Assembly (NCBI GenBank): GCA_964385625.1
Contig: CAYLPS010000004.1
Coordinates: 6,407-70,406 of the forward strand
DNA length: 64,000 nt
Reading direction: 5' to 3'
Source: an uncultured Anaerolineaceae bacterium
GTDB taxonomy: Bacteria; Chloroflexota; Anaerolineae; Anaerolineales; UBA4823
In this document: piece after piece, positions 6,521 through 21,944 of the stretch
Layout: each line of letters begins with the position of its first letter
Position numbering within the stretch: position 1 is the stretch's first letter
Program-made: the position numbers and the translations under genes
The notes under the pieces: model-generated
The model's database searches: none
What the model saw: the letters and a program-made list of their open reading frames with translations, nothing else
Told to the model about the DNA's origin: nothing

Positions 6521-8308
6521 TCAAAGATCAAAACAGCACCATACCTTCCGCATCCGCCAACAAATCCCCCTGATCCCCGATTTCGACAATCCAAACTGTT
6601 CGGCAAGTTCACGCGTCGATTTTCCTCCCTTATGCAGCTCATAAATCTTCAAATCCCTCTCTGACGGCCCCCTCGACGCCGCTTTCAACCGCCGTCGTGT
6701 CTTCTTCCCCTCCCCAGCTAACTCTGCCACCATCATCCCCCTGGCTTCAACGCCCTTATAGCCCTCAATTGGGAAGGCATACCACACCTTTGCCCGATCA
6801 TACCCCAGTTCCACCTTAGTAATAAACCGTGGGAACAGCAGATTGCGTAGCACCCGAACGTCGCCGGCCTGGCTGGCGGCCTGGATCTTACCCCGCCATA
6901 CATCCAGCACCACTTTCAACGCTTCAGGAGAGATTTCCAATTGGGAGGCGGCTTTTTTTGATTGCAAATCCCAGATTTCTGCCTGGTGGAAAGCTAATTC
7001 AGCTTCACGTGCCTTCAGCCGCTCGCCAGCCGCCTGGGCGCCGTAGGTTTCGGCCAGGTCGAGCAGGTTCTGGATCGCCTTCTGCGTTTCTTTGACTTGC
7101 TTTTCCAGGCGCTCGATATCCCGTTCGATGGCCGATGTATCCGCCAGTTGGGCTCTGGTTTCGGCCAGCAGGGCCTGGATGAAGTCCGGGGTCAGGATGC
7201 GGGTCAGGACGGCATCCAGGATGGCATTTTCAGCTTTTTCGGCGTTGACCATCCGTCCCTGGCAACTATCCCAGCCATAACGCGACTTCTGGCCGCACAT
7301 GTAGTACGGCCATGTGAAGTTCCGCCCCTGCTGTGTGTTCGCTTGGCTGTACGCAACGGCCGCGCCACAGTGGATACACACTGCATGTCCCGAAAGCAGC
7401 GATGGGGCAGATTGCCGGCGAGGGTGGGCCACACTGGAAGTCTGCTTGTGTTTGGGGTGAGCACCTTGGATTTTCTGTACCGCGTCCCAGGTAGCCTGAT
7501 CTACCACTGCCGGGTGGTGATTGGGGATTTCTAAATCCCCGCATTTGCCAATGCCCAGGTAGGTCTTATTGGCGAAGAAACTTGGCCAACAGCTCTTGGA
7601 CTTGTAGAGGAATCCATGCGTGGCTTCCTGGATTTCCCCATAGCTTTTCCCCTGGAAACGCATGACCCAGGCCAGCTTCGCCAGTTCAAAAAGCTCCGGA
7701 TCCTCTATCCAGCGGCTGACTTTGCGCGGCATTCCGTTGCGCTTGGTTCCGATAATCACTTCTTCAGCCTGGTATCCTCGTGCAGGCACCCCGCCGGAAG
7801 AAAAGCCTTGTCGCACCTGGGCCGCAAGTGAGCGTTTCACATCGCGTGAGGTCTGCCGGCGCTTTTCTTCGTTGGTGATATCAATGATAACTTCCACTAC
7901 CCGGCCGTAGACACCCTCCGGGATCGGATCAGTCAGTGAATGAATGATTACACCCTGCTTACGGATCAGGGCTTTGTAATAGCTGGAGTCATCAAGTTCG
8001 CGAGCAAAGCGGGCAAAGTTCCATAATAGCAACCCGCGTGGGCGCAGGTCTGAGTCTTTGACCATATCCACCAGGTCGTTGAAAGCATCGCGTCCGATGA
8101 CGCTGCCGCCGCTGCGGGCTACATCGGCAAAGACATGCCCCATCAGCAGGTTGTGCCGCAGGCAGTAAGCCTCAATTTCCGTCTTTTGCTGGGGAACGCT
8201 TTGTTCCTGGCTGTCGCCGCCCGAATCGCGCAAATATGCCCAAACTATGGACCCGGGCGGAAGCGCAGCAGGTGGGGGCATATAGTCAGGCATGGTTTTT
8301 ACCTTCAA
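6521..8308 (-). CDS. Large serine recombinase (integrase type) with an extra C-terminal HTH
   Basis: Resolvase-type catalytic N-terminus (AYLRDSGGDSQEQS), recombinase domain, Cys-rich zinc ribbon (CIHCG...CGQKSRYGWDSC) and a long coiled coil. The last ~45 aa look like a sigma70-region-4/LuxR-type HTH (STRELAEQFGLSKSGIRGI). Confidence 0.9.
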   Translation of the reverse strand: MKVKTMPDYMPPPAALPPGSIVWAYLRDSGGDSQEQSVPQQKTEIEAYCLRHNLLMGHVFADVARSGGSVIGRDAFNDLVDMVKDSDLRPRGLLLWNFARFARELDDSSYYKALIRKQGVIIHSLTDPIPEGVYGRVVEVIIDITNEEKRRQTSRDVKRSLAAQVRQGFSSGGVPARGYQAEEVIIGTKRNGMPRKVSRWIEDPELFELAKLAWVMRFQGKSYGEIQEATHGFLYKSKSCWPSFFANKTYLGIGKCGDLEIPNHHPAVVDQATWDAVQKIQGAHPKHKQTSSVAHPRRQSAPSLLSGHAVCIHCGAAVAYSQANTQQGRNFTWPYYMCGQKSRYGWDSCQGRMVNAEKAENAILDAVLTRILTPDFIQALLAETRAQLADTSAIERDIERLEKQVKETQKAIQNLLDLAETYGAQAAGERLKAREAELAFHQAEIWDLQSKKAASQLEISPEALKVVLDVWRGKIQAASQAGDVRVLRNLLFPRFITKVELGYDRAKVWYAFPIEGYKGVEARGMMVAELAGEGKKTRRRLKAASRGPSERDLKIYELHKGGKSTRELAEQFGLSKSGIRGICWRMRKVWCCFDL

Positions 8309-8584: not shown

Positions 8585-9943
8585 TTATTCAAGCTCCACA
8601 ATCGGGTGGGGCTCGCCGCGGGGCCAGGTGACAGATTTAATGTGCAGGCTTTTCGCCCGCATGTATTCAGCCGTTTCTTCTATAGAGCGGATGACAGCCC
8701 GCCGCTGTGGAGGCGGTGCGGGCAGCGCCACAACTTGCGGCGCATTTTCTATTGGGATGGTCGGCTCTGGAGCTGGATTTTCAGACGGCCTGGCCTGCTC
8801 CCGGTGCTCAATTTGCGTCAGCGCCCAGGAAACCAGGTCGAGCAGCCGCCCACCGGAACGGTGATAATCGGTCAGGTCTTTATCATGGGGGCGGATATTG
8901 CGCCACTCGACCAGCCGGGTGCGTGCGCTCAGGTTCTGCCAGAAGTGGATCGCCCGCTGGCTCTTGCCATCCTGATCATAAAAGAGCAAAAAATATTTGA
9001 CCGGGTAGAAATAACGCGCCCATTGTTCAAGGCAAGGATAGTAAGAATTGCTGCCCAGGGTGATCACCCCCAGGGCTTGCCAGCGCGGGTTATCGGCGTG
9101 CAGCAGGCATTGCCTTAGCAGCATGGCGTCCAGTTCCCCTTCCGTGATACAGACCGCTTCTGGGGCGGAAAGCAGCGTCTCAGCCTGGAAAAGACCCGGC
9201 TGGCCGCCGCGCACCTGGATATACTTGGGTTTCCCTGCCGGCCGCCTAATCTTCAGGTTTGATATCGTCCCGTTGACCTGAGAAGGGATCAGGATTCCCT
9301 GGGAAAGGTACACCGGCCCTCCAGTCAACCCCCAGTGAGCGGGTTGATCGGTCGAGTCTATTGGAATATAGCCAATCTGAGCCGCCTGCAGTGTGGCAGG
9401 TTCGAGCCCCCGCTCTTGCATCCAATCCAACGGGGGTACCCGCCGTAGGCAGGGCTCACCGCTAACCGGGTCGGTTTCCTGCCATGCGACATCTACTGTA
9501 CCGGCTTTGCCCAACAGGCGCTCCATCCCCCTTTCGACAACTTGCCCGGCTCGCTTCTGCCAGCGGTCGTCTGGTGGCCGGCAGGGTTTTGCCGCCTTGG
9601 GCGCCTGCACCTTACGCTCCGGTGCAGCAGGCAGACCATCCTGTGTCAAAGCCAGGACCGCCTGCGTAAAAGTCTGCCCACTGAGGCGCATTTGCAGCTC
9701 GATGGCATCTTTCCAGCCGCCATCCTCTGGACCACCCGTGCAGTGGCGGCAAAACCAACGGTTGGTCTCTTCCTGGACATGGAAACGGTCATCGCCGCCG
9801 CATATCGGGCAGGGCCCGGCATATTCCCCTCCGCCGGTAGTGGCCACCCGCCTGAGCGTGGTTTTCCGGGACGCCAGGTCCTGCACATTTACCTGCCTGG
9901 CGCTCCTGATTTGGTCTGTTGAAACCATGGATTCTCTCCCCAT
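8585..9943 (-). CDS. DnaG-like primase (zinc finger + Toprim)
   Basis: CPICGGDDRFH...WFCRHC zinc finger; Toprim acidic motifs CITEGELDAM and LFYDQDGKS. Confidence 0.8.
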   Translation of the reverse strand: MGRESMVSTDQIRSARQVNVQDLASRKTTLRRVATTGGGEYAGPCPICGGDDRFHVQEETNRWFCRHCTGGPEDGGWKDAIELQMRLSGQTFTQAVLALTQDGLPAAPERKVQAPKAAKPCRPPDDRWQKRAGQVVERGMERLLGKAGTVDVAWQETDPVSGEPCLRRVPPLDWMQERGLEPATLQAAQIGYIPIDSTDQPAHWGLTGGPVYLSQGILIPSQVNGTISNLKIRRPAGKPKYIQVRGGQPGLFQAETLLSAPEAVCITEGELDAMLLRQCLLHADNPRWQALGVITLGSNSYYPCLEQWARYFYPVKYFLLFYDQDGKSQRAIHFWQNLSARTRLVEWRNIRPHDKDLTDYHRSGGRLLDLVSWALTQIEHREQARPSENPAPEPTIPIENAPQVVALPAPPPQRRAVIRSIEETAEYMRAKSLHIKSVTWPRGEPHPIVELE

Positions 9944-10018: not shown

Positions 10019-11851
10019 TCATGTTTTGTCGCTCTTGAACCTGCCAGGCAGGCCGCCACCCATCAAAATCCAGGCCTGGGCTGCCGGCCCACGCGCCCCT
10101 TTGCGCTCGACCAGGTCAATCAACCCATCCCGGCGCATCCGTTCCACCAGGCGATCCACCAGGTCACGGCGGTTGCTGTCCGTCATACTCAAAGCAATGG
10201 CCAGCTCGCGAGTGGACAGGCCGGCCGGTTTCTGGCGCAGGACACGGATGGTCTTGGCTTCCAGGTCATCATCTTCGCTGGCACGGCCGGCGTCTGCGAT
10301 CATCCGGTGCAGGCTGGCGCGCATCGCCTCGGTAATCACCTGGGCCTTTGCCCAGTGCTCCATGGTGACGGTGACAGTCCCGGTGTGAGAGGCGTTTGCC
10401 CAATCGGTTGTGGCCAGTAGCAGGGCTATTTTCATTGCCAGGGCGTGAAAGCGGCCATAGTTGGCGTAGAATTTCTCGAGCACCAGTTTCTGGCGCATTA
10501 GCTCCCACAACCCACTGTGGTAAGCATCCCAGCTCTCCCACACTCCCCTGGCCAGTGCCGCCTGCAGCGCCGCTGCGTTCTGGATTTCACCCAGGCCCGT
10601 TTCTTGCGGCTGAGGCAATATCTCCAATGCCAGGTCATGCAAGGAACTGATCAGCCCATGAGGGGTCTCAACCTGCGGTGGGTAGAAGACCCGCCAGGGT
10701 GGCACATCCGGCGTGATAAAGCCGACACGGGCAAACAGACCGTTGCCCCAATACGCCCGGTTATTGATATGCACGCGCATCGCGGAAGGTGTGGTAGAGC
10801 CACAAATGGTCAAATAAGCGTTATGGATGGTCTGGCGGCCGCGGATAATCGTGGAGGCAGCGGTCAGTTTCTTGGGACAATCGAACAACCTCAACACCTG
10901 ATTGAGTAAATCGGACGTGTACTTCTGGTCAAACGCTTCCAGCAGGGCAGCCGCTTCGTCGATCAGCCAGACACGCTGCGCTGCAAAAGGGCGTTCACGG
11001 CGCCAATCTTCCTGATCGTTCAGTTCCCAGGAGGCGAACGTATCAGGCTGGCGACCGGTCAGCTCGCTGATCAGGCTTTGCGGGGTGATCCCCACTGGCA
11101 GCATGAACCGCTCCAGGCCTGCCTGTTCCAGGATATAGCGAGCGAGGTCCAGCGCAGTGGTTTTGGCATACAGCGTCGAATGGGCCACAATCAAGCCATA
11201 AAAGTTGGAGTACAGGCTGGTGTTCGACACGCGCAAGAACACCCGCCTGGCGATGGCGGTGGCAAGGAGCGCCAGGCCTAAGATCAGGTGAAACAACCGT
11301 GGGCTCATGGGAGCCGCCTGGCAGGCAAAATCCATATAGGCACCCAACCAGCCGCCAATGCCATCGATCCCTCTGACCAGCTTCTCAGGATAACGAGCCG
11401 AAGCAGGCAGTTCAGGCACATCCGTCAGCATGCTCAGTTCCTGGGCCTTGGTTTCTGCTTTGAACTCATCCTCGTCTTCGGCAAGCGGGGCGGAAAGAAC
11501 CTCTGCTCGAATTTCGTTGGCATCGTCGCGACTGGCAATCAGCTCTTCAAATATTTCCACTGCGCTGCGCCCATTGCGCCGGGCAATAATCTCCCGAGCC
11601 AGTCCATTCCAGGGCTCAACCAGGTTCACTGCATCAGGCACATGCTCCCCCGCAATCAAACGGGCGATGTGACGTGCCCCTGCGTTTGCGGTATAATTTG
11701 AATAGCTACCGGCACGGTTTTCCGTGTCCTCTGAATTGGGCGCCTGCGACAAGGCGCCCAGTTTGTTTTCTTCCATGGGCATCTCCTGCTTGAGTTCAGC
11801 CAGCCTGGCCAGGCTCAGGTTCCGTGCGGTTCTGGTTTTCAACCTCCGCAT
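10019..11851 (-). CDS. Helicase/loader-like replication protein (DUF3987-like, tentative) with C-terminal winged helix
   Basis: 610 aa with a deviant P-loop-like VAHSTLYAKTTAL, Walker-B-like WLIDEAA, and C-terminal STRELAIALSM...LVERMRRDGLI. Lies directly upstream of the primase. Confidence 0.45.
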   Translation of the reverse strand: MRRLKTRTARNLSLARLAELKQEMPMEENKLGALSQAPNSEDTENRAGSYSNYTANAGARHIARLIAGEHVPDAVNLVEPWNGLAREIIARRNGRSAVEIFEELIASRDDANEIRAEVLSAPLAEDEDEFKAETKAQELSMLTDVPELPASARYPEKLVRGIDGIGGWLGAYMDFACQAAPMSPRLFHLILGLALLATAIARRVFLRVSNTSLYSNFYGLIVAHSTLYAKTTALDLARYILEQAGLERFMLPVGITPQSLISELTGRQPDTFASWELNDQEDWRRERPFAAQRVWLIDEAAALLEAFDQKYTSDLLNQVLRLFDCPKKLTAASTIIRGRQTIHNAYLTICGSTTPSAMRVHINNRAYWGNGLFARVGFITPDVPPWRVFYPPQVETPHGLISSLHDLALEILPQPQETGLGEIQNAAALQAALARGVWESWDAYHSGLWELMRQKLVLEKFYANYGRFHALAMKIALLLATTDWANASHTGTVTVTMEHWAKAQVITEAMRASLHRMIADAGRASEDDDLEAKTIRVLRQKPAGLSTRELAIALSMTDSNRRDLVDRLVERMRRDGLIDLVERKGARGPAAQAWILMGGGLPGRFKSDKT

Positions 11852-12011
11852 CGGCAGACTGGTGGATCAAGTCTGGCAGCAGCCCTCGGCGCAGCAGCTC
11901 CTGCCGGACAAGGAAACGGATCTGGTCACGCGGGTCGCGCATTTCCAGCGCCGCCCACTGGGCCAGGGTTTCCGCTTCGGTTTCGTTCAAGTGAACCAAC
12001 AATCGGATCAT
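11796..12011 (-). CDS. Ribbon-helix-helix (CopG/Arc-like) DNA-binding protein, 71 aa
   Basis: Internal ATG at 12011 with GGAGG 5 nt upstream (cctcc at 12017-12021 on +). MIRLLVHLNETEAETLAQWAAL fits a strand-helix-helix pattern. The 124-aa ORF-track version is probably over-extended. Confidence 0.6.
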   Translation of the reverse strand: MIRLLVHLNETEAETLAQWAALEMRDPRDQIRFLVRQELLRRGLLPDLIHQSADAEVENQNRTEPEPGQAG

Positions 12012-12213
12012 CAAAACCTCCTGAATCATGTTTATTGGACATACTTGCAACAGGATATCGAAAAGTGGAGGAAGGAAAAAGGGATTATTTCTTTTCCTTC
12101 TTAACCTTCCTGCACGTTGCCGTGCCTCTTCCCCGCCCTCAATCCGCCTTGTTTTGTATCGGGCTCGCACCGCCGGGTGGGAAGAGTATGAAGTTGGTAA
12201 TGTTCAGGGGTTG

Positions 12214-12269
12214 CTATTGTGTAACACAATAGGTTTGGCGAAATAAGTACTTATTGTATTATACAATAG
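12214..12269. promoter_or_regulatory. Paired palindromic operator-like sites (CTATTGTG-taa-CACAATAG; TTATTGTAT-t-ATACAATAG)
   Basis: Perfect 8-bp arms at 12214-12232 and 8/9 arms at 12251-12269, upstream of the RHH/replication operon. 12248-12272 recurs at 33248-33272 with 24/25 identity. Confidence 0.55.
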
Positions 12270-12330
12270 GTTATAACAAAACAAACACAGATCCTGGAAC
12301 CTGTACCTGGATTCAAATTATCAGCAACCC

Positions 12331-13344
12331 TTACCTGGTTTTCTTTTGAAGTTCGCGCTTAACCTGCTGCACTTCATCCAGCAGGGCATCATCGGCTTCT
12401 TGATAGCGCTTCAGCCGTTTTCGGGCATATTCCAGCAGCTTTACATCATGAGGCCAACCAATCCTGAGTTTGATTTCCTTCCAGGGCATCCGGGGGTCTT
12501 GTTCACGAATTTCTTCTGCCCACTGTGCATATGCCATACGCTGGATAATTTCTTCTTTAGATAATCCTGGGTTGCCTGGCTGAGCGTTACGGGCGGGTGC
12601 GATCACTTCGGCTGCTGATGTTGCAGAGGTTTCGGCTTGCAGCAGCCCGTCCCGCTGCAAGCGCCGTTCTATATGCACCAGTAGTTGATTTTGCTTGTCC
12701 AGCTTCTGCTGTAGCAGCCTTATCTGACCCACGTTCAGCATGCGAGGCCGGGTAGTATTCAAACATTCCTTAAATCCGGGATCCAGCGGATCACAATTTT
12801 TCATTGCTTCACCTAAAGCCAGCGCGTCCAGCTTGTTCTCCGCTTCTGAACGCTTGTGCAGGATATGATCGGTATGGTAAGCCCATCCGACCAGGTAATA
12901 CATGGTCTCTTCCTCCGATGGCATGTCGGGGTCGGTCGCTCGCAAGTTGGTGCGCTGATCACCAATCGACCTCAGCCAGATCTCGCCGAAATATCCCATG
13001 CGGGACCACCCTGAGTCATCGAAAAGGGTGTAAATGATCAAGCCATCCATTTGGGGCGGCCTGCGCCACCAGCGTACCTTATCGCCAAATTGATCCACCA
13101 GGTACACCATCACAGCCGCGTCTACGGATGCCAGAGGAGCCTGGATGACGATTCCATCTGTGCGAATTTTATTGTTGCCTTCCATATCCTGAACACTGCC
13201 CCTTTCGGCGCTAATTTTACCCGGTGTACAATAGGATGGCAAACAAGTACTCTTGTAGTGAAAGATTGGGGGGTAAGGCGCGTTTTTCTGGTCGCCGCCA
13301 GGCCAATAACGGCTGAAAAGGATGGCGTATAATTGGATGGACAA
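12331..13344 (-). CDS. Hypothetical protein (up to 337 aa; start uncertain, alternative ATG at 13185)
   Basis: Long ORF with a protein-like C-terminal two-thirds (coiled-coil and charged helical region). No family recognised. Confidence 0.5.
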   Translation of the reverse strand: MSIQLYAILFSRYWPGGDQKNAPYPPIFHYKSTCLPSYCTPGKISAERGSVQDMEGNNKIRTDGIVIQAPLASVDAAVMVYLVDQFGDKVRWWRRPPQMDGLIIYTLFDDSGWSRMGYFGEIWLRSIGDQRTNLRATDPDMPSEEETMYYLVGWAYHTDHILHKRSEAENKLDALALGEAMKNCDPLDPGFKECLNTTRPRMLNVGQIRLLQQKLDKQNQLLVHIERRLQRDGLLQAETSATSAAEVIAPARNAQPGNPGLSKEEIIQRMAYAQWAEEIREQDPRMPWKEIKLRIGWPHDVKLLEYARKRLKRYQEADDALLDEVQQVKRELQKKTR

Positions 13345-13472: not shown

Positions 13473-14126
13473 ATGGAATTTGAGCGCTTGTTGGAGCTGG
13501 TTGGCGATGAACCGGTCTTTGAGACCGCCCTGCTGTTGGCTGGCAAGGTCAACCCAGATATCGTGCGCCTGCAGCTCACCCGCTGGACGAATAGCGGGCG
13601 GGTGTATCAACTGCGTCGCGGCCTGTACGCCATCGCCCCGCCCTATCAAAAAGTCAAGCCGCACCCCTTCCTGATTGCCAACCGCATGCGGCGCGCCTCC
13701 TATGTCAGCGGGCAGTCGGCCCTGGCTTTTTACGGGCTGATCCCCGATACTGTGCAGCTCACCCTCAGCATCACTACCGGCCGCCCAGAGCGTTTAGAAA
13801 CGCCGCTGGGCGTTTTTGAGTTCCGCCACGTCAAACCCGAGCTGCTGCGCGGCTATCGCATGCTGGCGCTGCACGGCCAAAAAGCCCCAGAGCAACAGGC
13901 CCTGGTAGCCACACCCGAAAAGGCCCTGCTGGACCTGGTGTATTTACAGCCCGGCGGTGATACCCCATCTTACCTGCACGAGCTGCGCCTACAAAACCTG
14001 GAGCGGCTGGATCTTGACGAGCTGCGCCGCCAGGCTGAAACCTTCCATACCCCCAAACTGCGCCGGGCCGTCAAGGCCATTACCAGCCTGGCGCACAGCG
14101 AAACCCAGGAGTATGAAACATTATGA
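13473..14126 (+). CDS. abiEi: AbiEi-family antitoxin (type IV TA / abortive infection)
   Basis: N-terminal winged helix (LQLTRWTNSGRVYQLRRGLYAI), C-terminal AbiEi-type domain, and ATGA overlap with the downstream AbiEii gene. Confidence 0.85.
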   Translation: MEFERLLELVGDEPVFETALLLAGKVNPDIVRLQLTRWTNSGRVYQLRRGLYAIAPPYQKVKPHPFLIANRMRRASYVSGQSALAFYGLIPDTVQLTLSITTGRPERLETPLGVFEFRHVKPELLRGYRMLALHGQKAPEQQALVATPEKALLDLVYLQPGGDTPSYLHELRLQNLERLDLDELRRQAETFHTPKLRRAVKAITSLAHSETQEYETL

Positions 14127-14929
14127 GAGAGCACCTGGCTGAACTGGTTCGGCAGACTGCCACGCCCGCCCAAGGCCGCAACCTGGCAAGAGAATACCTG
14201 CAGGCCCGCATCCTGGCTGCGTTGCAGCGCGCCGGGGCGATGATCCCGCTGGCTTTTCATGGCGGCACCGCCCTGCGCTTTCTATATGCCCACGGGCGTT
14301 ACTCTGAAGATTTGGACTTCGCCCTGGAAGGCGACCGCGGCAGCTACGATTTTCGCGGCTACCTGCAAGCAATTCGAGCCGAGTTGACGCCGGAGGGTTA
14401 CCCGGTTGAGCTCAAGGTCAGCGATCAAAAGACCGTCCACAGCGCCTTCGTGCGCTTCCCCGGCCTGTTGTACGATCTGGGGCTGTCTGGCCAGCAAAGA
14501 GAAGTCTTGGCCGTGAAAATCGAAGTGGACACCAACCCACCCGCCGGCGCCGGGGTGGCGACCACGGTCGTGCGCCGCTTTGTGGTGCTCCAGCTTCAGC
14601 ACCACGATAAGCCCTCGCTGCTCTCAGGCAAGCTGCACGCCATCTTGCAGCGTTCTTACACCAAGGGCCGCGACCTTTACGACCTGCTCTGGTATCTCAG
14701 CGACCCCGCCTGGCCGCCGCCGAACCTGACCCTGCTTAACAATGCCCTGGCGCAAACCGGCTGGCAAGGCGAGATATTGACAGCGATCAACTGGCGAAAC
14801 CAGGTGCGCCAGCGCCTGCGCCGCCTGGATTGGGAGAACATCCAGGCGGACGTGCGCCCGTTCATAGAATCGGGGTTTGACTTGAGTTTATTGAGCCTGG
14901 AAAACCTGGAACGGGTGTTGGGAGAATAG
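14123..14929 (+). CDS. abiEii: AbiEii/AbiGii-family nucleotidyltransferase toxin
   Basis: LAFHGGTALRFLY...RYSEDLDFAL nucleotidyltransferase signature; 268 aa. Confidence 0.9.
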   Translation: MREHLAELVRQTATPAQGRNLAREYLQARILAALQRAGAMIPLAFHGGTALRFLYAHGRYSEDLDFALEGDRGSYDFRGYLQAIRAELTPEGYPVELKVSDQKTVHSAFVRFPGLLYDLGLSGQQREVLAVKIEVDTNPPAGAGVATTVVRRFVVLQLQHHDKPSLLSGKLHAILQRSYTKGRDLYDLLWYLSDPAWPPPNLTLLNNALAQTGWQGEILTAINWRNQVRQRLRRLDWENIQADVRPFIESGFDLSLLSLENLERVLGE

Positions 14930-14933
14930 TGGA

Positions 14934-17681
14934 ATGCGCAAAATTTCCGAAGCTGAGACTCGCAAAAAGTTGATCGACCCTGCCCTGGAAAGAGCAGGAT
15001 GGAATCTGAAGAACCATGCCCAGGTCGGTTTGGAAATTCCAGTGGATGGGTATGACAAAGAGCCCTGGAATGGAGTCACCGATTACTGTCTCTACCGGGC
15101 AAATGGTGAAGTGATCGCTGTGGTAGAAGCTAAACGTACCAGCCATGACCCGCGCCTGGCACAGCAGCAAGCCGAGCATTATGTAACCGAAATCACCAAA
15201 CACCAGCGCTTTCAGCCCTTTGCCTTCCTGACAAACGGAACAGATATCTATTTCCTGGAAAAAGGCCTGGCTCCAAAGCGCCTGGTTTATGGCTTTTTCT
15301 CGCCCGACGATCTGGAACGCTTGCTCTTCTTGCGGCAGCAGCAAAAGCCTCTCAGCAGCATTGCAATTGATAATACCATCACTGATCGCGCTTACCAGCA
15401 TGAAGCGATTCGTCGGGTGTGTGAAGCCTTCGACGCGGGCAAACGTAAAGCTTTGCTTGTAATGGCAACAGGCACCGGCAAAACCCGGACAACCATGTCC
15501 ATTATTGATGTTTTTCTGCGCGCCAACCAGGCGCGCACGATCTTATTTGTCGCTGACCGCGACGCTCTGGTTGAGCAAGCGAAAACCGATGGTTTTGAGA
15601 AGTTTTTGCCGCATGAACCATGCGATCGGATTTACTCCCATACGATCGATAAAACCAAACGTCTGTACGCAGTAACCTTGCAAACGCTTAGCCAATGCTT
15701 TGAACAATTTTCGCCTGCCTTTTTCGATTTGATCATTTTTGATGAGGTTCACCGCTCCATTTTCAACAAGTTCAATGAGGTGCTTCAGTATTTTGATGCA
15801 CGCATGATCGGCCTGACCGCCACCCCAGCGCAGTTCATTGATCGGGATACGTTTCGTGTTTTTGAATGCGGCGATGGCAAGCCCACCTTTTTGTACCCTT
15901 ACAAACAGGCCATCGAAGAAGGCTTCCTAGTGGATTACACGCTTTACGCCGCGCAAACCCGTTTTCAGCGCTCCGGCATTCGCGGCGTTGACTTGAGCGA
16001 CGAAGAGCGGAATTTACTGATCGAGCAGGGTTTTGATCCTGATGAAATTGATTTCGAAGGTACTCAGCTCGAAAAGGATGTCAGCAACAAGGATACCCTG
16101 CGCAAGCAGTGGGAAGAGATCATGGATAAATGCTACCGTGACCAATCCGGTCAACTACCGGGTAAGACCATCATTTTTGCCATAACCCAAGAACATGCCC
16201 TGCGCTTGCAAGAAATCTTCGACCAGATGTATCCCCAGTTCCCGAACCTGGTGCGCGTGATAACGCATAAATCTGAATATCGCGGCCAATTGGTCAAGAA
16301 TTTCAAACAGGAAGATATGCCGCGGATTGCCATTTCGGTGGACATGCTCGATACCGGCATTGATGTCCCCGAAGTAGTCAACCTAGTATTCATGAAACCT
16401 GTTCAGTCACGCATCAAGCTGGAGCAGATGGTCGGACGTGGCACCCGCTCGAACGCGGCATGCAGGTTTCCCGAGCGCCTGCCCGGCGGCGTTAAACGCG
16501 AGTTCCAGGTGATTGATTTCTGGGAAAATGATTTCAATAAAGCCCCTGAAGTAGCCCAGGCCCAAGAACTGCCCGTGCTGGTCTCGCTATTTAACACCCG
16601 CCTGCGATTGTTAGAAACTTATCTCGGAGAACAGGATGATCCTGGCTGCCAGCAGACGATTGGCGATCTACGCGCTCAGATTGGGCGCATTCCCAAGGAA
16701 TCTTTCTCTGTGCGGCGCGTGCTTCCCGAGATCGAAGAAGCCTTCACCGATGCATTTTGGGGCTATTTGGTCTCTACGAAAATCGATTTTCTACGCCTCA
16801 AGGTTGGTCCCCTGCTGCGTTTAGCCCCAGACGTGGATGTGCCGGCAGAAACCTTCCACCACAAAATTGAACGGTTGAAGTTAGCTCAACGCACAGGAAG
16901 AGACCCTGCCGATCTTGTGCAATCTATTGTTGAGGATGCTGCCAGTCTGCCCGATTTTGTCATTCAAGATCCGGCGCTTTCTCCACTAGTCAAACAATGT
17001 AAGCCCAACAATTTGACGCAAGCTTCACCCAGCGAACTCAGCCAGATTGCGGCTGGCCTGGCGCCGCAGATGAAGAACAAGCGCCGGGTGAGCAGTTTCT
17101 TGACCCTGGATCTGCCTGATCGCATTGATCTGAGCGGTTACATCTTGCTAACCCAAAGCGGTGAGCAAGTGTATGTCAAGGAATACCGCCAACGGGTGGA
17201 GACGCGTATCCTGGCAATCGTTGAAAACCACCCCGCAATGCAAGCCATTGGCCGCGGCGAAACCCCCGATGATTTGCTACTGCTCGATCTGGAACGAACC
17301 TTGCAAGCTGAGCTGGCTGCAAGCGAGTTGGAGTTGACGCCGCAAAATATCCGCCGCGCTTATGGTGTACAAGTGGAAAGTTTCCTGGACTTTCTGCGCC
17401 TGATATTAGCTGTGGATGCCATTCCTGGGTATCGTGAGATCGTTCAACATCAATTCCAACAATTCATCAGTGCTCACCTGTATAATGCCAATCAAATCCG
17501 CTTCTTGCGCGCCGTACAAAGCGTATTTCTACAAAAACGCCGCCTGGCTTTGCCCGATTTCTATGCTGAACCGCTCACCAATTTTGGCGCCGATGCCGTT
17601 GATCGCTGGTTTAGCCAGGACGAAGTGTCTGAAGTCCTGGAATTTACTGAAAAACTTACCCTTGCTGATGGTCCAAAATGA
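14934..17681 (+). CDS. hsdR: Type I restriction enzyme R subunit
   Basis: N-terminal nuclease motif (DYCLY...AVVEAKR), helicase motif I MATGTGKTRT, motif II IIFDEVHRS, and an EcoEI-R-type C-terminal domain. Confidence 0.9.
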   Translation: MRKISEAETRKKLIDPALERAGWNLKNHAQVGLEIPVDGYDKEPWNGVTDYCLYRANGEVIAVVEAKRTSHDPRLAQQQAEHYVTEITKHQRFQPFAFLTNGTDIYFLEKGLAPKRLVYGFFSPDDLERLLFLRQQQKPLSSIAIDNTITDRAYQHEAIRRVCEAFDAGKRKALLVMATGTGKTRTTMSIIDVFLRANQARTILFVADRDALVEQAKTDGFEKFLPHEPCDRIYSHTIDKTKRLYAVTLQTLSQCFEQFSPAFFDLIIFDEVHRSIFNKFNEVLQYFDARMIGLTATPAQFIDRDTFRVFECGDGKPTFLYPYKQAIEEGFLVDYTLYAAQTRFQRSGIRGVDLSDEERNLLIEQGFDPDEIDFEGTQLEKDVSNKDTLRKQWEEIMDKCYRDQSGQLPGKTIIFAITQEHALRLQEIFDQMYPQFPNLVRVITHKSEYRGQLVKNFKQEDMPRIAISVDMLDTGIDVPEVVNLVFMKPVQSRIKLEQMVGRGTRSNAACRFPERLPGGVKREFQVIDFWENDFNKAPEVAQAQELPVLVSLFNTRLRLLETYLGEQDDPGCQQTIGDLRAQIGRIPKESFSVRRVLPEIEEAFTDAFWGYLVSTKIDFLRLKVGPLLRLAPDVDVPAETFHHKIERLKLAQRTGRDPADLVQSIVEDAASLPDFVIQDPALSPLVKQCKPNNLTQASPSELSQIAAGLAPQMKNKRRVSSFLTLDLPDRIDLSGYILLTQSGEQVYVKEYRQRVETRILAIVENHPAMQAIGRGETPDDLLLLDLERTLQAELAASELELTPQNIRRAYGVQVESFLDFLRLILAVDAIPGYREIVQHQFQQFISAHLYNANQIRFLRAVQSVFLQKRRLALPDFYAEPLTNFGADAVDRWFSQDEVSEVLEFTEKLTLADGPK

Positions 17682-18541
17682 TCGAATTTATTGAATCTCA
17701 CCGTGGAAAACCAATCTGCCAGACCTTTAAAGACCTGGCTGCCCGGACGTGGAATTATCTGGCTGAGGGCGCCAGGATCGGTATGCCTCCGGGTGAGGAA
17801 ACATTGACCGATGAAAACCTGATGGCGATCCTGGCTCTGCATGCAAGCCAGGTGGCAATTTGGCGTTTCACCAAGCACAGGGAAAGCCAGGTTGGTGCAG
17901 ATTGGGAATGGTGGTTCGGCAACCCGACAAACGGCTGGTTTGGAATGCGAGTGCAGGCTAAAAAGCTTGACCTGAAACAATTCTCCTCTTATTACGGGGT
18001 TGACCACCCCGATCACACCAACCAACAGATTGATGCATTGATTCGGGAAAGCCAAAGTGCAGGTCTGTTTCCTGCTTACTGCCTCTATAACACCCATTTA
18101 TCTCCCAGACTCCCCGAATGGGGCTGCAGCATAACATCTGCTGTGGCCATGCGGAGCGCCTTAGGACAGCCCCAGGCGCGCCGTTCGCACGCTGTTGCGT
18201 TTAAAGATATTGAAAAATATTTGTTCCCCTGGCATCGCCTGGTTTGCCATCCTGAAACAGGCCACCCCGACGGCGGTGGTTTTCCTGACCTGGTGCGCAA
18301 TTCAATTTTGCCTGGCCTTCCATCTAGTCTGCAGGGAGAGGTGCCGGAGACTCACCCCGAGTTGCCCGATTACGCCAGAAAACTGGTGGGAGAAGTGACT
18401 GCTTCTTTGGAAAATAAAATGATCCCTGCTGTGGATACCATGGAACTTGAGTTTCCCACCCAATATCTGGTTGTTGTGTCAGACCAACCCATATTTCCGC
18501 GATTTATCATTGATGAGATGAAACCTTTTCGGGAGAAATAA
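17678..18541 (+). CDS. Uncharacterised 287-aa protein embedded in the hsd operon; possible PD-(D/E)xK-like fold
   Basis: ATGA overlap with the hsdR stop; its stop is 3 nt before the hsdM ATG. Pattern is E40/E41, D75 (GADWEWWF), Q93-A-K95 (MRVQAKK). No family recognised. Confidence 0.6.
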   Translation: MIEFIESHRGKPICQTFKDLAARTWNYLAEGARIGMPPGEETLTDENLMAILALHASQVAIWRFTKHRESQVGADWEWWFGNPTNGWFGMRVQAKKLDLKQFSSYYGVDHPDHTNQQIDALIRESQSAGLFPAYCLYNTHLSPRLPEWGCSITSAVAMRSALGQPQARRSHAVAFKDIEKYLFPWHRLVCHPETGHPDGGGFPDLVRNSILPGLPSSLQGEVPETHPELPDYARKLVGEVTASLENKMIPAVDTMELEFPTQYLVVVSDQPIFPRFIIDEMKPFREK

Positions 18542-18544
18542 ACG

Positions 18545-20254
18545 ATGCTAACGGACCCCAAACTTCGCAGCCAGGTTGATTCTCTGTGGGACAAGTTCTG
18601 GTCAGGCGGCCTGACGAACCCCCTCGACGCCATCGAGCAGTTTTCTTACCTGCTTTTTCTCAAACGCATGGACGACGCCGAAAGCAGGCGCGAGAAACTG
18701 GCCAAGAAGCTGGGGCAAGCTTACACTCCTGGCCTGGCGCCAGATCTGCGTTGGGGCTATTGGACAAACCTGAAGGCTGATGAAGCGCTGCGCCACCTGA
18801 AAGAAGTGATCTTCCCCGATCTGCGCAAGCTGGGTGCAGCCGGCAGCTCGTTTGAGCGTTACATGGCCAACGCTGAATGCAAGATCAGCAAACCATCCTT
18901 GCTCATCGAAGCCTGTAAGCTGATTGACCAGATGGAAATCAGCCAGCAGAACCAGGATGTGCAGGGCGATCTATATGAATACCTGCTCAGCAAGCTCAAC
19001 ACTGCCGGCCGCAACGGCCAGTTCCGCACGCCGCGCCATATCATCCGCATGATGGTGCAGATGTTGGCGCCGCAGCCGATGGAGCGCATCGGCGACCTGG
19101 CCGGCGGCACCTGCGGTTTTCCGGTCAATGCGCACCAGTATATTTTGGAGACTCACACCTCGCCTGAGATTTTGGAATATGACGAGGCTGGCCTGCCGCA
19201 CAACTTGATTGGCGATTTGCTCAAGCCGGAAGAACGCACTTTCATGGCTTCCGCCAGGTACTTGCGCGCCTTCGATAATGACGCCGGCATGACCATGCTG
19301 CGGATCGGCTCCATGAACTTGATCTTGCATGGGATCGAATCGCCGCAGTTTTTTTACATGGACACGCTCTCCAAAGCCTTCATCGACGAGCGCGAGTACG
19401 ATGTGATCCTGATGAATCCGCCTTTCAAGGGAGCGGTGGACAAAGGCGATGTCAACCCCAGCCTGCCCGGCGACACGACCAAGACTGAGCTGCTCTTCCT
19501 GCACCTGATCCTGCGCGCCCTGGACATGGGTGGGCGCTGTGCGGTGATTGTGCCGGACGGGGTGTTGTTTGGCTCCAGCAAGGCGCATGTGGCGCTGCGT
19601 AAAAAGATCATTGAGGAAAACCGCCTGGACGGGGTCGTTTCCATGCCTCCGGGCGTGTTCAGGCCCTATGCCGGGGTTTCAACGGCCATTCTGTTCTTCA
19701 CCCGCGGCGCCAAAACTGAGCGTATCTGGTTCTATGACATGGCGCATGATGGGTTTTCGCTGGACGACAAGCGCCTGCCTGTGGGGGAGAACGATATTCC
19801 AGATGTACTGCTGTGCTGGCAGAAGCGCGGCGACAATGCCTTCCAGCAAGCCCGTCAGCAGCGATTGGACGAACTCAAAGCCCAGGTTGCGCCGCTGAAG
19901 GTCGAGCAATTGAGTCTGCACGCTGAGATCAACCGCCTGACCTTCGAACAGGCCATTGCCCCAGAGGGAGATAGCCCGTTGACGGCTGAACTGGCCGCAG
20001 CACAAGCCCGTCTTGTCGACCTTGATGCCCACATTGCCCCCTTGCAGGCCGAAATGGATCAACTCTCGCGCCAGTTCTGGGTTAACAAAGCTCAGGTCAA
20101 GGCCAACAAGTATGATTTGTCCACCAGCCGCTATCGTCAATTTGAGATAGACGAAACATATTATGAGAAACCACAGATCACTCTAAAGCGTATGAGAAAA
20201 CTGGAGGAAATTTGTTTGGACACTCTGGATGAACTTCAGGATTACAGCAGATGA
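18545..20254 (+). CDS. hsdM: Type I R-M N6-adenine DNA methyltransferase subunit
   Basis: HsdM N-terminal domain, AdoMet motif DLAGGTCGF, catalytic NPPF (LMNPPFKG), and a C-terminal coiled coil. Confidence 0.9.
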   Translation: MLTDPKLRSQVDSLWDKFWSGGLTNPLDAIEQFSYLLFLKRMDDAESRREKLAKKLGQAYTPGLAPDLRWGYWTNLKADEALRHLKEVIFPDLRKLGAAGSSFERYMANAECKISKPSLLIEACKLIDQMEISQQNQDVQGDLYEYLLSKLNTAGRNGQFRTPRHIIRMMVQMLAPQPMERIGDLAGGTCGFPVNAHQYILETHTSPEILEYDEAGLPHNLIGDLLKPEERTFMASARYLRAFDNDAGMTMLRIGSMNLILHGIESPQFFYMDTLSKAFIDEREYDVILMNPPFKGAVDKGDVNPSLPGDTTKTELLFLHLILRALDMGGRCAVIVPDGVLFGSSKAHVALRKKIIEENRLDGVVSMPPGVFRPYAGVSTAILFFTRGAKTERIWFYDMAHDGFSLDDKRLPVGENDIPDVLLCWQKRGDNAFQQARQQRLDELKAQVAPLKVEQLSLHAEINRLTFEQAIAPEGDSPLTAELAAAQARLVDLDAHIAPLQAEMDQLSRQFWVNKAQVKANKYDLSTSRYRQFEIDETYYEKPQITLKRMRKLEEICLDTLDELQDYSR

Positions 20255-20784
20255 AAGAGGTCTCTCTTTCTGATGTCAGCCGAATTAACCCACCCAAGCG
20301 GGCTGGCTTATCACGTGATCTGTTGTGTTCATTCGTGCCCATGGAATATGTAGACGATATTTCAGGCACCATCACCCAGACATCAGTTCGTTCAGTTGGA
20401 GAAGTTGAAAAAGGATATACACCGTTTCTAAATGGCGATGTAATTTTTGCAAAAATTACACCTTGCATGGAAAATGGCAAATGTGCCATAGCCCAAGGAA
20501 TGATGAACGGCGTTGGTTTTGGCTCGACAGAATTTCATGTTCTGCGCGCAGAACATGATGTTCTGCCAGAGTGGATTTATTACTTCTTGCGCCAGGAAAA
20601 AATCAGACAACAAGCAGCGCGCTGGTTTCGTGGTACCGCTGGTCAGCAACGTGTTCCAAGCGACTTTCTCGATCAATTGAAGCTCCCCCTCCCAACTATT
20701 CCAGAACAGCGCCGCCTCGCCGCCATCCTGGCCAAAGCCGACCGCCTGCGCAGCCTGCGCCGTTACGCCAATGCGCTGGGATAG
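20251..20784 (+). CDS. hsdS: Type I R-M specificity subunit, proximal half (TRD1 + part of central conserved region), ends at in-frame TAG
   Basis: ATGA overlap with hsdM. TRD-like region followed by LPLPTIPEQRRLAAILAKADRLRSL. TAG at 20782-20784. Confidence 0.85.
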   Translation: MKEVSLSDVSRINPPKRAGLSRDLLCSFVPMEYVDDISGTITQTSVRSVGEVEKGYTPFLNGDVIFAKITPCMENGKCAIAQGMMNGVGFGSTEFHVLRAEHDVLPEWIYYFLRQEKIRQQAARWFRGTAGQQRVPSDFLDQLKLPLPTIPEQRRLAAILAKADRLRSLRRYANALG

Positions 20785-20805
20785 ACCTACCTGCAGTCTG
20801 TATTT

Positions 20806-21429: not shown

Positions 21430-21435
21430 CCACCT

Positions 21436-21915: not shown

Positions 21916-21944
21916 CATTGAGAGCCTCGTTACCGCGAAGCGAA

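What the first reader, a model, noticed from the sequence alone, without database searches (positions are those of the whole stretch)
12214..12272. Twin palindromic operator sites 21 kb apart link the replication and transfer operons of the element
Site A contains CTATTGTG-taa-CACAATAG (12214-12232) and TTATTGTAT-t-ATACAATAG (12251-12269). Site B contains TTATTGTAT-a-ATACAATAG (33251-33269) and CCTATTGT-ggcat-ACAATAGG (33288-33308). The 25-mers TACTTATTGTAT(T/A)ATACAATAGGTT at 12248-12272 and 33248-33272 differ at one base. Site A lies upstream of the leftward RHH-helicase-like-primase-recombinase operon. Site B lies directly upstream of the leftward membrane-protein/TraB-like/ParM-like operon. 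A degenerate half-site (CACAACAGGTTT, about 34720-34731) sits upstream of the excisionase-like gene. This looks like a single repressor regulon, with the RHH protein next to site A as the obvious candidate. That regulon would control replication, transfer and perhaps excision. It also argues that the defence array between the two sites is cargo inserted within one element.
Basis: partly seen in the sequence, partly recalled or inferred. Interest (0 to 1): 0.55.

Follow-up and report, generated by a model that had tools for sequence, protein, structure and literature searches.

The report
Shared repressor-binding sites in a mobile element
A 28-kb mobile element sitting next to a tRNA gene, probably in an Anaerolineae bacterium, carries the same short palindromic DNA site in front of its replication, transfer and excision genes, which looks like an ordinary single-repressor control circuit most likely run by a small ribbon-helix-helix protein.

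Summary
Four 19-bp palindromes (CTATTGT-N5-ACAATAG) lie in two pairs at 12214-12269 and 33251-33307, with centres 37 and 38 bp apart. A fifth site at 34708-34726 is a full palindrome with 12 of 14 arm bases, 7 nt upstream of the excisionase-like gene. No other sequence in the 64 kb resembles them.

Five related elements carry the same twin palindromes upstream of the orthologous 71-aa gene. Their arms are invariant, the spacer of the second palindrome varies, and the spacing is 36-37 bp. That is the signature of a protein-binding operator.

The 71-aa protein has a confident ribbon-helix-helix fold, with Arc, AmrZ and CopG as best structural matches.

Thirteen loci from sister elements share the transfer operon but not the RHH module. 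They have no such sites and use at least three other control cassettes.

The most likely mechanism is an RHH repressor that autoregulates the replication operon and co-represses the transfer operon and the excision gene. This resembles CopG, pRN1 ORF56, omega and ArtA.

The binder is not proven, and site B could not be checked in close relatives. Verdict: a new member of a known kind, of modest interest.

The parts
12211..12235 (-). Site A, promoter-proximal palindrome (AACCTATTGT-GTTAC-ACAATAGCAA on the - strand)
   Evidence: The arms are invariant and the 5-bp core varies (GTTAC, GTGAC, ACGCC, GCGCC) in 5 related loci.
12248..12272 (-). Site A, distal palindrome with TATAAT at its dyad (AACCTATTGTATAATACAATAAGTA). 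This is the probable -10 of the replication-operon promoter.
   Evidence: CCTATTGTATAATACAAYAAGT is invariant in 6 loci. The TATAAT-as-promoter reading is my own inspection of the - strand; the consensus scan flagged only a + strand hit here (TTGGCG-16-TATTAT, 12235-12262).
12282..12309 (-). Terminator-like hairpin ending the upstream 337-aa gene, immediately before site A
   Evidence: Relatives have stronger GC-rich hairpins plus a T-run at the same place.
12012..12210 (-). Conserved non-coding leader of about 200 nt between site A and the RHH gene. It contains the invariant hairpin GAAGGAAAAG-N9-CTTTTTCCTTCC.
   Evidence: Alignment, consensus fold, no Rfam match.
11796..12011 (-). 71-aa ribbon-helix-helix protein, first gene of the replication operon (SD AGGAGG 5 nt before the ATG). 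Candidate repressor.
   Evidence: AlphaFold model with pLDDT 94-99 over residues 1-40. Best PDB fold matches are Arc (TM 0.89, rmsd 1.1 A), AmrZ, pRN1 ORF56, CopG and PutA-RHH. hhalign to CopG gives 71% probability.
10019..11851 (-). 610-aa DUF3987 (helicase-like) protein
   Evidence: Pfam PF13148, E = 9e-15. Syntenic in L001, L003, L004 and L024.
8585..9943 (-). 452-aa primase (Zn-ribbon primase domain, weak Toprim match)
6521..8308 (-). 595-aa large serine recombinase at the left end of the element
   Evidence: Pfam Resolvase and Zn_ribbon_recom. Host-type B12-binding genes lie to its left.
12331..13344 (-). 337-aa conserved protein directly upstream of site A (true start probably near 13185). 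Its C-terminus has an HTH-like conserved block. Alternative candidate binder.
   Evidence: No Pfam match.
13473..24271 (+). Rightward cargo: AbiEi/AbiEii, a type I restriction-modification system (HsdR, DUF6615, HsdM, two HsdS), a PUA-like protein and others
33248..33272 (-). Site B, proximal palindrome (AACCTATTGTATTATACAATAAGTA), matching the site A distal site at 24 of 25 bases. TATTAT/TACAAT lie at the dyad, and the palindrome proper (33251-33269) ends 24 nt before the ATG.
33286..33310 (-). Site B, distal palindrome (ATCCTATTGT-ATGCC-ACAATAGGCA). It overlaps the -10 of a TTGACC-17-TATCCT promoter-like site.
33345..33366 (-). Intrinsic terminator of the upstream 353-aa gene (8-bp stem with 6 GC pairs, then TTTGTTTTT)
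24277..33226 (-). Leftward operon downstream of site B. In order: 138-aa membrane protein, 385-aa membrane protein, 455-aa FtsK/SpoIIIE-family ATPase, 401-aa actin-like ALP/ParM, then 75-aa, 230-aa and 510-aa proteins, a 313-aa Xer-like tyrosine recombinase and a 497-aa SNF2 helicase.
   Evidence: The same gene order is found in L058-L069.
34705..34729 (-). Third locus: degenerate full palindrome (CTCTTGT-ATGGC-ACAACAG at 34708-34726), 7 nt upstream of the xis-like ATG
   Evidence: 22 bits; shuffle maximum 16.2
34491..34700 (-). 69-aa HTH_17 (excisionase/AlpA-like) protein
   Evidence: Pfam PF12728, E = 6e-12
34807..34880 (-). tRNA-Glu(TTC), which marks the right border of the element

Best explanation
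The palindromes are operators for one repressor encoded by the element. The most likely repressor is the 71-aa ribbon-helix-helix protein that opens the replication operon.

**Inferred mechanism**
- RHH dimers bind the two 7-bp half-sites (CTATTGT, centres 12 bp apart) of each 19-bp palindrome, as a dimer of dimers in the manner of Arc.
- Each promoter carries two palindromes 36-38 bp apart.
- One palindrome of each pair has a -10-like hexamer (TATAAT or TATTAT) at its dyad, so binding there would exclude RNA polymerase.
- The second palindrome would raise occupancy or act as a roadblock.

**Predicted consequences**
- At site A this is negative autoregulation of the RHH, DUF3987, primase and serine-recombinase operon.
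- The same protein would shut the operon for the membrane proteins, the FtsK-like ATPase and the actin-like protein at site B.
- It would bind more weakly at the degenerate site over the ribosome-binding region of the excisionase-like gene.
- Replication, transfer or segregation, and excision would therefore be held off together in the integrated state and released together.

**Shown:** the sites, their conservation pattern, their promoter context and the RHH fold. **Inferred:** which protein binds, its stoichiometry and the sign of regulation.
For: 1. The sites are far beyond chance and are confined to the element's three leftward promoter regions.
2. In L001, L003, L004, L024 and L040 the twin palindromes lie upstream of the orthologous RHH gene. 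Their arms are invariant, the core of the second palindrome varies and the spacing is 36-37 bp. This is the pattern expected of a binding site, not of an RNA hairpin, because no compensatory arm changes occur.
3. At both sites a terminator for the upstream gene precedes the pair. -10-like hexamers lie within or next to the palindromes. TATAAT is invariant in all six site A copies.
4. The 71-aa protein has an RHH fold. It is the first gene after the operators, which is the classical layout of CopG/RepB and pRN1 ORF56/ORF904 (PMC4234260).
5. The motif tracks the RHH module. It is present in 5 of 5 RHH loci. It is absent from 13 loci (about 175 kb) of sister elements that share the transfer operon (membrane protein 75-89% identical, FtsK-like protein 59-90% identical) but have a different replication module and other control cassettes.
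6. The 75-aa protein that follows the actin-like gene is 75-76% identical in L058 and L060, which lack the motif, so it is not the binder.
7. Precedents exist for RHH regulators acting at several plasmid promoters: ArtA of pSK41 (PMC2777438) and omega of pSM19035 (PMC9499535, PMC2441792).
Against: - No binding data exist.
- The RHH reaches no Pfam or NCBIfam threshold. Only sub-threshold RHH_1, RHH_5, NikR and RelB hits appear in distant members.
- The DUF3987 protein, the primase, the serine recombinase and the 337-aa protein co-occur with site A just as well as the RHH does.
- Site B and the xis site were seen only in this one element, so the 'regulon' rests on a single genome.
- The order of the AT-core and GC-core palindromes relative to transcription is reversed between sites A and B. 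The promoter geometry therefore differs between the two, and the transcription start sites are unknown.
- A centre-to-centre distance of 37-38 bp is about 3.5 helical turns. That places the two palindromes on opposite faces of the helix, which is unfavourable for simple looping.
Confidence: 0.6

Rival explanations
1. The sites are operators, but a different element-encoded protein binds them. Candidates are the 337-aa protein encoded directly upstream of site A (conserved C-terminal HTH-like block), the HTH_17 excisionase-like protein, whose own promoter carries the degenerate site, and the serine recombinase, which has a C-terminal Mor-like HTH.
For: - The 337-aa family is syntenic with site A in window, L001, L003, L004 and L024. 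Its most conserved part is the block PWKEI..I.WPY..KLLEDAR.RL.
- HTH_17 matches at E = 6e-12, and a site lies 7 nt from that gene's start.
- The recombinase has a weak Mor match at its C-terminus.
- A half-site spacing of 12 bp suits HTH dimers as well as RHH tetramers.
Against: - The C-terminus of the 337-aa protein matches no DNA-binding family. Its gene is separated from site A by a terminator.
- Excisionase-type HTH_17 proteins usually bind direct repeats near att sites (general knowledge).
- The gene placed immediately behind the operators is the RHH, which is the canonical autoregulator position.
Confidence: 0.2
2. The octamer repeats are replication-origin iterons rather than, or in addition to, operators. 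Under this reading the helicase-like DUF3987 protein or the primase binds CCTATTGT repeats at two distant cis sites. This would resemble the ori and crr regions of satellite phage P4, which are bound by the alpha primase-helicase (recalled from the literature, not retrieved here).
For: - The replication proteins co-occur with site A in 4 of 4 loci long enough to judge.
- A strongly conserved non-coding leader of about 200 nt, containing a hairpin, lies next to site A and could be an origin.
- There are two repeat clusters 21 kb apart, each with four half-sites.
Against: - All three loci coincide exactly with promoter regions, including one 24 nt and one 7 nt from a start codon.
- An origin has no reason to sit over the xis ribosome-binding site.
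- The strict palindromes with a variable core are typical of dimeric regulators.
- No DNA-binding domain was detected in the C-terminus of the DUF3987 protein.
Confidence: 0.1
3. The sites are centromere-like partition sites for the actin-like (ParM/ALP) segregation system, bound by an adaptor protein as parC is bound by the RHH protein ParR.
For: - Site B lies upstream of the operon that contains the ALP gene and a 75-aa protein that looks RHH-like by eye.
- Type II parC sites overlap the par promoter (general knowledge).
- Omega of pSM19035 is both a global repressor and a centromere binder (PMC9499535).
Against: - Close orthologues of the ALP and of the 75-aa protein (75-76% identical) occur in L058 and L060 with no CTATTGT site anywhere in 13-21 kb.
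- Site A is conserved beside the replication module, away from any par genes.
Confidence: 0.05
4. The two near-identical 25-mers, which are in direct orientation, are recombination sites for the internal Xer-like tyrosine recombinase. Recombination between them would resolve or excise the 21-kb segment between them.
For: - The direct repeat matches at 24 of 25 bases and flanks the segment that encodes the tyrosine recombinase.
Against: - The same tyrosine recombinase is conserved in nine sister loci that carry the gene and lack the motif.
- Site A is conserved in relatives as a promoter-linked pair.
- The arm and spacer geometry (7-9 bp arms, 1-5 bp spacer) is unlike the 11-6/8-11 layout of Xer sites (general knowledge).
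Confidence: 0.03

Closest known systems
CopG/RepB of pMV158 and ORF56/ORF904 of Sulfolobus plasmid pRN1 (RHH copy-control repressor co-transcribed with the replication protein)
   Same: A small RHH protein is the first gene of the replication operon and the operator overlaps the operon's own promoter. In pRN1 the replication protein is a primase/helicase (PMC4234260). pRN1 ORF56 (3ft7) and CopG (1ea4) are among the best fold matches to the 71-aa protein.
   Different: Here each promoter has two 19-bp palindromes rather than one pseudosymmetric element. A conserved leader of about 200 nt separates the operator from the gene. The same operator recurs at two further promoters outside the replication module. 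There is no detectable sequence-family membership.
ArtA of Staphylococcus plasmid pSK41 (RHH master regulator of conjugation and partition genes)
   Same: One small RHH protein has operators in several promoters and coordinates horizontal and vertical transmission functions (PMC2777438).
   Different: ArtA recognises a 10-bp ACATGACATG site, mostly as a single dimer, and has an N-terminal basic extension. The host is a Firmicute and the element is a T4SS plasmid rather than an integrated element.
Omega repressor of inc18 plasmid pSM19035
   Same: An RHH global regulator controls copy number, partition and toxin-antitoxin promoters from repeated short sites (PMC9499535, PMC2441792).
   Different: Omega binds arrays of 7 to 10 contiguous 7-bp heptads, not spaced 19-bp palindromes, and it doubles as the ParB of a ParA system.
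KorA/KorB/TrbA global regulon of IncP plasmids and the kil-kor/KorSA-Pra circuits of Streptomyces plasmids and AICEs (from general knowledge; AICE review PMC2440964)
   Same: Identical palindromic operators are distributed over the replication, transfer and maintenance promoters of one mobile element. In AICEs a repressor controls an FtsK-like transfer gene together with excision and replication.
   Different: Those regulators are HTH or GntR proteins. AICEs use a tyrosine integrase and live in Actinobacteria. This element is probably in Anaerolineae, has a large serine recombinase, and its FtsK-family protein is only generically related (26-31% identity to plasmid FtsK proteins).
Arc and Mnt repressors of phage P22
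   Same: Arc is the best structural match (TM 0.89, rmsd 1.1 A). Its operator of about 21 bp, with two half-sites one helical turn apart and bound by a dimer of dimers, matches the 19-bp geometry here (general knowledge).
   Different: The half-site sequences are unrelated, the context is a phage immunity region, and there is a single operator per promoter.

Membership tests
Ribbon-helix-helix (Arc/MetJ/CopG) DNA-binding superfamily | Fold: N-terminal beta-strand followed by two helices | tested here: met
   The AlphaFold model built from 92 sequences has pLDDT 94-99 over residues 1-40, an extended N-terminus and helices 10-22 and 27-41. The top PDB matches are almost all RHH proteins: Arc at TM 0.89 and rmsd 1.1 A, AmrZ, ORF56, CopG, PutA, ParD and FitA.
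Ribbon-helix-helix (Arc/MetJ/CopG) DNA-binding superfamily | Significant match to a curated RHH sequence family | tested here: inconclusive
   The window protein has no Pfam, PHROG or NCBIfam hit at threshold. Three of 92 distant members hit RHH_1 (best E = 0.01) and three hit RHH_5.
Ribbon-helix-helix (Arc/MetJ/CopG) DNA-binding superfamily | Dimerises and binds repeated or palindromic operator subsites | not testable with these tools
   Only monomer prediction was available, and there are no binding data.
Autoregulated RHH-replication operons (CopG/RepB, ORF56/ORF904 type) | RHH gene is first in the operon with the replication protein(s), and the operator lies in its own promoter | tested here: met
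   The gene order RHH, DUF3987, primase, preceded by the twin palindromes and a terminator, is found in window, L001, L003, L004 and L024. Promoter function itself is inferred.
Global (multi-promoter) regulons of mobile elements (KorA/KorB, omega, ArtA type) | The same operator at promoters of at least two functionally distinct modules of one element | tested here: met
   Sites lie at 12211-12272 (replication), 33248-33310 (transfer/partition) and 34705-34729 (xis-like), and nowhere else in 64 kb. This was seen in one element only.
Global (multi-promoter) regulons of mobile elements (KorA/KorB, omega, ArtA type) | Demonstrated binding and regulation by one element-encoded protein | not testable with these tools
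   Requires EMSA, footprinting or reporter assays.
Actinomycete integrative and conjugative elements (AICE) | FtsK/SpoIIIE-family TraB translocase | tested here: inconclusive
   The window protein scores 21.7 bits against PF01580, below the 24-bit cut-off. Many homologues carry precomputed PF01580. Identity to plasmid FtsK-domain proteins is only 26-31% and no Streptomyces TraB appears among the best hits.
Actinomycete integrative and conjugative elements (AICE) | Tyrosine integrase plus Xis next to a tRNA att site, in an actinobacterial host | tested here: not met
   The end-located recombinase is a large serine recombinase, and the tyrosine recombinase is internal and Xer-like. Homologues are named Anaerolineaceae or Anaerolineales. 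The element may work like an AICE but is not a member.
P4-type ori/crr iteron pairs | Repeated octamers at two distant cis sites bound by the primase-helicase and required for replication | not testable with these tools
   Only the repeat layout (two clusters 21 kb apart) is comparable. No DNA-binding domain was found in the C-terminus of the DUF3987 protein.

The most novel reading that the evidence does not exclude
The twin-palindrome/RHH unit may be a portable control cassette. When a transfer/segregation backbone acquired the RHH, DUF3987 and primase replicon, the cassette would have been grafted onto the transfer operon and the excision gene. Orthologous transfer operons in sister elements use at least three other, unrelated control cassettes, exchanged right up to the start codon. 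That would make this family a natural series of regulatory rewiring in poorly known FtsK-type integrative elements of Anaerolineae (Chloroflexota). A second unexcluded reading is that the sites double as a P4-like pair of origin and enhancer sites bound by the replication proteins.
Probability: 0.2. Interest if true: 0.5.

Novelty: new member of a known kind. Interest (0 to 1): 0.33.

Why it matters
If the circuit is confirmed, it gives a simple, testable handle on a family of integrative elements in Anaerolineae: one 71-aa protein and one 19-bp site that control replication, transfer and excision. This phylum has almost no characterised mobile elements or genetic tools.

The finding also helps to delimit the element and to mark a hot spot for defence-gene cargo.

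The principle is not new. A single repressor with operators at several module promoters is textbook plasmid and ICE biology.

Tried and rejected
- **Chance or generic repeat: rejected.** Shuffles and a matrix scan show no other site in the window. Scans of genome, metagenome and viral collections with the twin pattern recovered true relatives only in the RHH context. All the other hits belong to an unrelated family of 40-bp tandem repeats in gut Lachnospiraceae.
- **Two tandem elements with paralogous genes upstream of each site: rejected.** The 337-aa and 353-aa proteins are unrelated.
- **tRNA-derived direct repeat at the left end: not found.** Only 11-mers at chance level turned up.
- **Known RNA family in the leader: none**. 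The consensus fold shows little covariation.
- **Site B in relatives: not obtained.** Transfer-operon relatives fetched through the FtsK-like protein and the membrane protein (L057-L069) all have other regulatory cassettes.
- **First structure model: uninformative.** The 24-sequence model had pLDDT 64 and its fold search gave nothing useful. The 92-sequence model resolved the fold.
- **PDB sequence searches with the RHH profile: nothing**.
- **The 75-aa post-ALP protein as binder: rejected**.
- **A CTATTGT half-site upstream of the 337-aa gene (13228-13234): rejected.** It is specific to the window and not conserved in relatives.
- **Distant RHH relatives in viral contigs (L070-L075): weak support only.** They sit in different contexts. 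Only L070 has an upstream palindrome, and it has different half-sites (TCTAGGTT-ACAA-AACCTAGA). With n = 1 this is too few for a covariation test.
- **Pfam scan of the C-termini of the DUF3987 protein and the 337-aa protein: no DNA-binding domain**.

Full report
**1. The observation**

- Site A holds CTATTGTG-TAA-CACAATAG (12214-12232) and TTATTGTAT-T-ATACAATAG (12251-12269).
- Site B holds TTATTGTAT-A-ATACAATAG (33251-33269) and CCTATTGT-GGCAT-ACAATAGG (33288-33308).
- Centre-to-centre spacing is 37 bp at site A and 38 bp at site B. The 25-mers at 12248 and 33248 match at 24 of 25 positions.

The sites are far beyond chance.
- A 19-mer pattern allowing three mismatches matches only these places; 0.01 matches are expected.
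- A 25-bp weight matrix built from the window and related sites scores them at 35-40 bits. The best unrelated hit in the 64 kb scores 4.1 bits, and the best hit in 20 shuffles scores 16.2.

The same scans show that the 'degenerate half-site' near the excisionase-like gene is really a complete 19-bp palindrome: CTCTTGT-ATGGC-ACAACAG at 34708-34726. It matches 12 of 14 arm positions and scores 22 bits. It lies 7 nt upstream of the ATG at 34700 and overlaps the probable ribosome-binding site.

Read in the direction of the downstream genes, all five sites begin with AACCT(A/G)TTGT or ATCCTATTGT.

**2. Context**

The window holds an integrated element of about 28 kb.
- On the left it is bounded by a 595-aa large serine recombinase (6521-8308), next to host-type B12-binding genes.
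- On the right it is bounded by tRNA-Glu (34807-34880).

Reading leftward from the tRNA:
1. A 69-aa HTH_17 excisionase-like gene, preceded by the degenerate site.
2. A 353-aa TPR-like gene.
3. A good intrinsic terminator (33345-33366).
4. Site B.
5. An operon encoding a 138-aa and a 385-aa membrane protein, a 455-aa FtsK/SpoIIIE-family ATPase, a 401-aa actin-like ALP/ParM, proteins of 75, 230 and 510 aa, a Xer-like tyrosine recombinase and an SNF2 helicase.
6. Rightward-transcribed cargo at 13473-24271 (AbiEi/AbiEii, a type I R-M system and others).
7. A 337-aa gene.
8. A terminator-like hairpin.
9. Site A.
10. A leader of about 200 nt.
11. The operon of the 71-aa protein (12011-11796, with AGGAGG 5 nt before the ATG), the DUF3987 helicase-like protein, the primase and the serine recombinase.

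Each pair of palindromes therefore sits just after a terminator, at the head of a leftward operon.
- At site A a perfect TATAAT lies at the dyad of the distal palindrome.
- At site B TATTAT/TACAAT lie at the dyad of the proximal palindrome.
- A TTGACC-17-TATCCT promoter-like site abuts the distal palindrome of site B.

The start sites are not known. The order of the AT-core and GC-core palindromes relative to transcription is reversed between the two sites.

**3. Comparative evidence**

*The RHH module.* The 71-aa protein has 24 close homologues.
- The three longest contigs fetched (L001, L003, L004), plus two further loci found by a DNA-pattern scan of metagenomes (L024, L040), all carry the twin palindromes upstream of the orthologous gene. 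Spacing is 36-37 bp.
- In the six-way alignment, CCTATTGTATAATACAAYAAGT and the arms AACCTATTGT...CACAATAG are invariant. The 4-5 central bases of the second palindrome vary (GTTAC, GTGAC, ACGCC, GCGCC).
- Invariant arms with a free core, and no compensatory arm changes, indicate sequence-specific protein recognition rather than an RNA hairpin.
- The terminator before the pair and the leader after it are also conserved.

*The pattern elsewhere.* In 596 Gb of genomes, in the metagenome collection and in IMG/VR, the twin pattern otherwise matched only an unrelated family of 40-bp tandem repeats in gut Lachnospiraceae. The motif is therefore not a generic repeat.

*The transfer operon.* It has many relatives. 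Thirteen loci (L057-L069, about 175 kb) were examined. Their membrane protein is 75-89% identical and their FtsK-like protein 59-90% identical to those in the window. None contains a site scoring above 8 bits. Instead they use:
- a divergent HTH_3 repressor gene (L064-L068);
- a conserved CCAGGCCGGYCTRTAAGCCGCATT element (L058, L060, L063, L069);
- a different 67-aa RHH-like protein with GGTAGC repeats (L057).

Those elements also carry a different replication module (AAA_25 helicase plus a DnaG-like primase) within the same operon. Those that reach their end have a large serine recombinase next to host genes.

*What this shows.* The motif travels with the RHH, DUF3987 and primase module. In the window's element the transfer operon, which has no replication genes of its own, has the same operator in front of it. 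This fits one composite element under common control.

*What could not be done.* I could not look at site B or the xis site in a close sister element.

**4. The candidate binder**

The 71-aa protein matches no curated family at threshold. HMMER finds about 1,400 representative relatives of 60-70 aa.

With a 92-sequence alignment AlphaFold gives a confident model: pLDDT 94-99 over residues 1-40, an extended N-terminus and two helices. Its best PDB matches are almost exclusively ribbon-helix-helix proteins:
- Arc (TM 0.89, rmsd 1.1 A);
- AmrZ;
- pRN1 ORF56 (3ft7);
- CopA, CopG, PutA-RHH, ParD and FitA.

A profile comparison with CopG aligns the beta-strand and helix A in register at 71% probability. 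The RHH assignment is therefore confirmed by fold.

Other candidates:
- The 75-aa protein behind the ALP gene is excluded. Orthologues 75-76% identical occur in L058 and L060, which lack the motif.
- The 337-aa protein has a conserved C-terminal block that looks HTH-like to the eye but matches no family.
- The HTH_17 protein and the replication proteins cannot be excluded.

**5. Most likely mechanism**

I favour, at about 0.6, an Arc/CopG-type circuit.
- RHH dimers occupy the two half-sites of each palindrome (centres 12 bp apart), with two palindromes per promoter.
- One palindrome of each pair covers the -10 hexamer.
- The result is autorepression of the replication operon, co-repression of the transfer/segregation operon, and weaker control of the excision gene through the degenerate site.

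Known parallels are CopG/RepB, pRN1 ORF56/ORF904 (PMC4234260), ArtA of pSK41 (PMC2777438) and omega of pSM19035 (PMC9499535, PMC2441792).

Rivals, in order:
1. Another element protein as the binder (0.2).
2. P4-like origin iterons (0.1).
3. A centromere for the ALP system (0.05).
4. Sites for the tyrosine recombinase (0.03).

**6. Novelty and score**

The architecture is a standard one for plasmids and integrative elements, so this is a new member of a known kind. The setting adds some interest: FtsK-type integrative elements, probably in Anaerolineae to judge from the source names of homologues, and clear swapping of regulatory cassettes between sister elements. The regulon rests on one genome and on no binding data. 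Interest 0.33.

Noticed in passing
window 12012-12210 (- strand); L001 9811-10000, L003 9780-10000, L004 6671-6891: A non-coding leader of about 200 nt lies between site A and the RHH start codon and is strongly conserved in six loci. Its conserved blocks are TTACCAAYTNCATA, CTTCCCACCCGGCGGTGCRAGCCCGA and AAACAAGGCAGATTGAGGG, plus an invariant hairpin GAAGGAAAAG-N9-CTTTTTCCTTCC. It has no Rfam match, and only 3 covarying pairs were seen. It could be an attenuator, a cis-regulatory RNA or the origin of replication.
   Followed up: partly
window 34735-34787: A 53-bp quasi-palindrome (25-nt arms, 88% complementary, 3-nt centre) lies between the xis-like gene and tRNA-Glu, at the right edge of the element. 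Its function is unknown. It might be a binding site for the excisionase or recombinase, or an insulator against read-through from the tRNA.
   Followed up: no
L005-L056 (e.g. L005 539-700): Gut Lachnospiraceae MAGs and human-gut metagenomes carry many arrays of a 40-bp tandem repeat. The unit is a CTATTGTTCATGACAATAG palindrome plus a 21-nt spacer, and there are several arrays per genome. The half-sites are the same as in the finding, but the context is unrelated and the nature of the arrays is unknown.
   Followed up: no
L057 6136-6400; L058 254-573; L060 8334-8546; L063 1004-1344; L064 9588-10000; L069 1024-1265: The orthologous operon (membrane protein, FtsK-like protein and so on) is preceded by at least four unrelated regulatory cassettes in sister elements, exchanged right up to the start codon. 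They are a divergent HTH_3 repressor; a conserved CCAGGCCGGYCTRTAAGCCGCATT element; a 67-aa RHH-like protein with GGTAGC repeats; and the CTATTGT palindromes in the window.
   Followed up: partly
window 13473-24271; L001 1-8533; L003 1-8553; L004 2-5302: The slot between the 337-aa gene and the transfer operon is a cargo hot spot. AbiEii lies next to the 337-aa homologue in three elements. Beyond it are variable defence genes: a type I R-M system, a DUF1156 methylase with AAA_21, a GIY-YIG protein and a 1767-aa trypsin-DEAD helicase protein.
   Followed up: partly
window 13120-13480 (- strand) and L001, L003, L004 equivalents: The intergenic region between the 337-aa gene and AbiEi is conserved. 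It has its own small inverted repeat (ACAAG-AGTA-CTTGT) and a GTAAAAT -10-like box. The called TTG start of the 337-aa ORF (13344) is probably too far upstream; an ATG near 13185 fits the homologues better.
   Followed up: partly
L070 3955-3974: A phage-borne relative of the RHH (55% identity, beta-strand MVRLQVTL) is preceded by a perfect 8-4-8 palindrome, TCTAGGTT-ACAA-AACCTAGA, about 26 nt before its ATG. This hints that family members autoregulate through palindromes of differing sequence.
   Followed up: no
window 6364-6374 and 34840-34850: An 11-bp direct match (CCTTGAAAGGG) links the anticodon-loop region of tRNA-Glu to the left end of the element, just beyond the serine recombinase gene. 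It is about the length expected by chance and the flanks do not match, so it is not evidence for an att core.
   Followed up: yes
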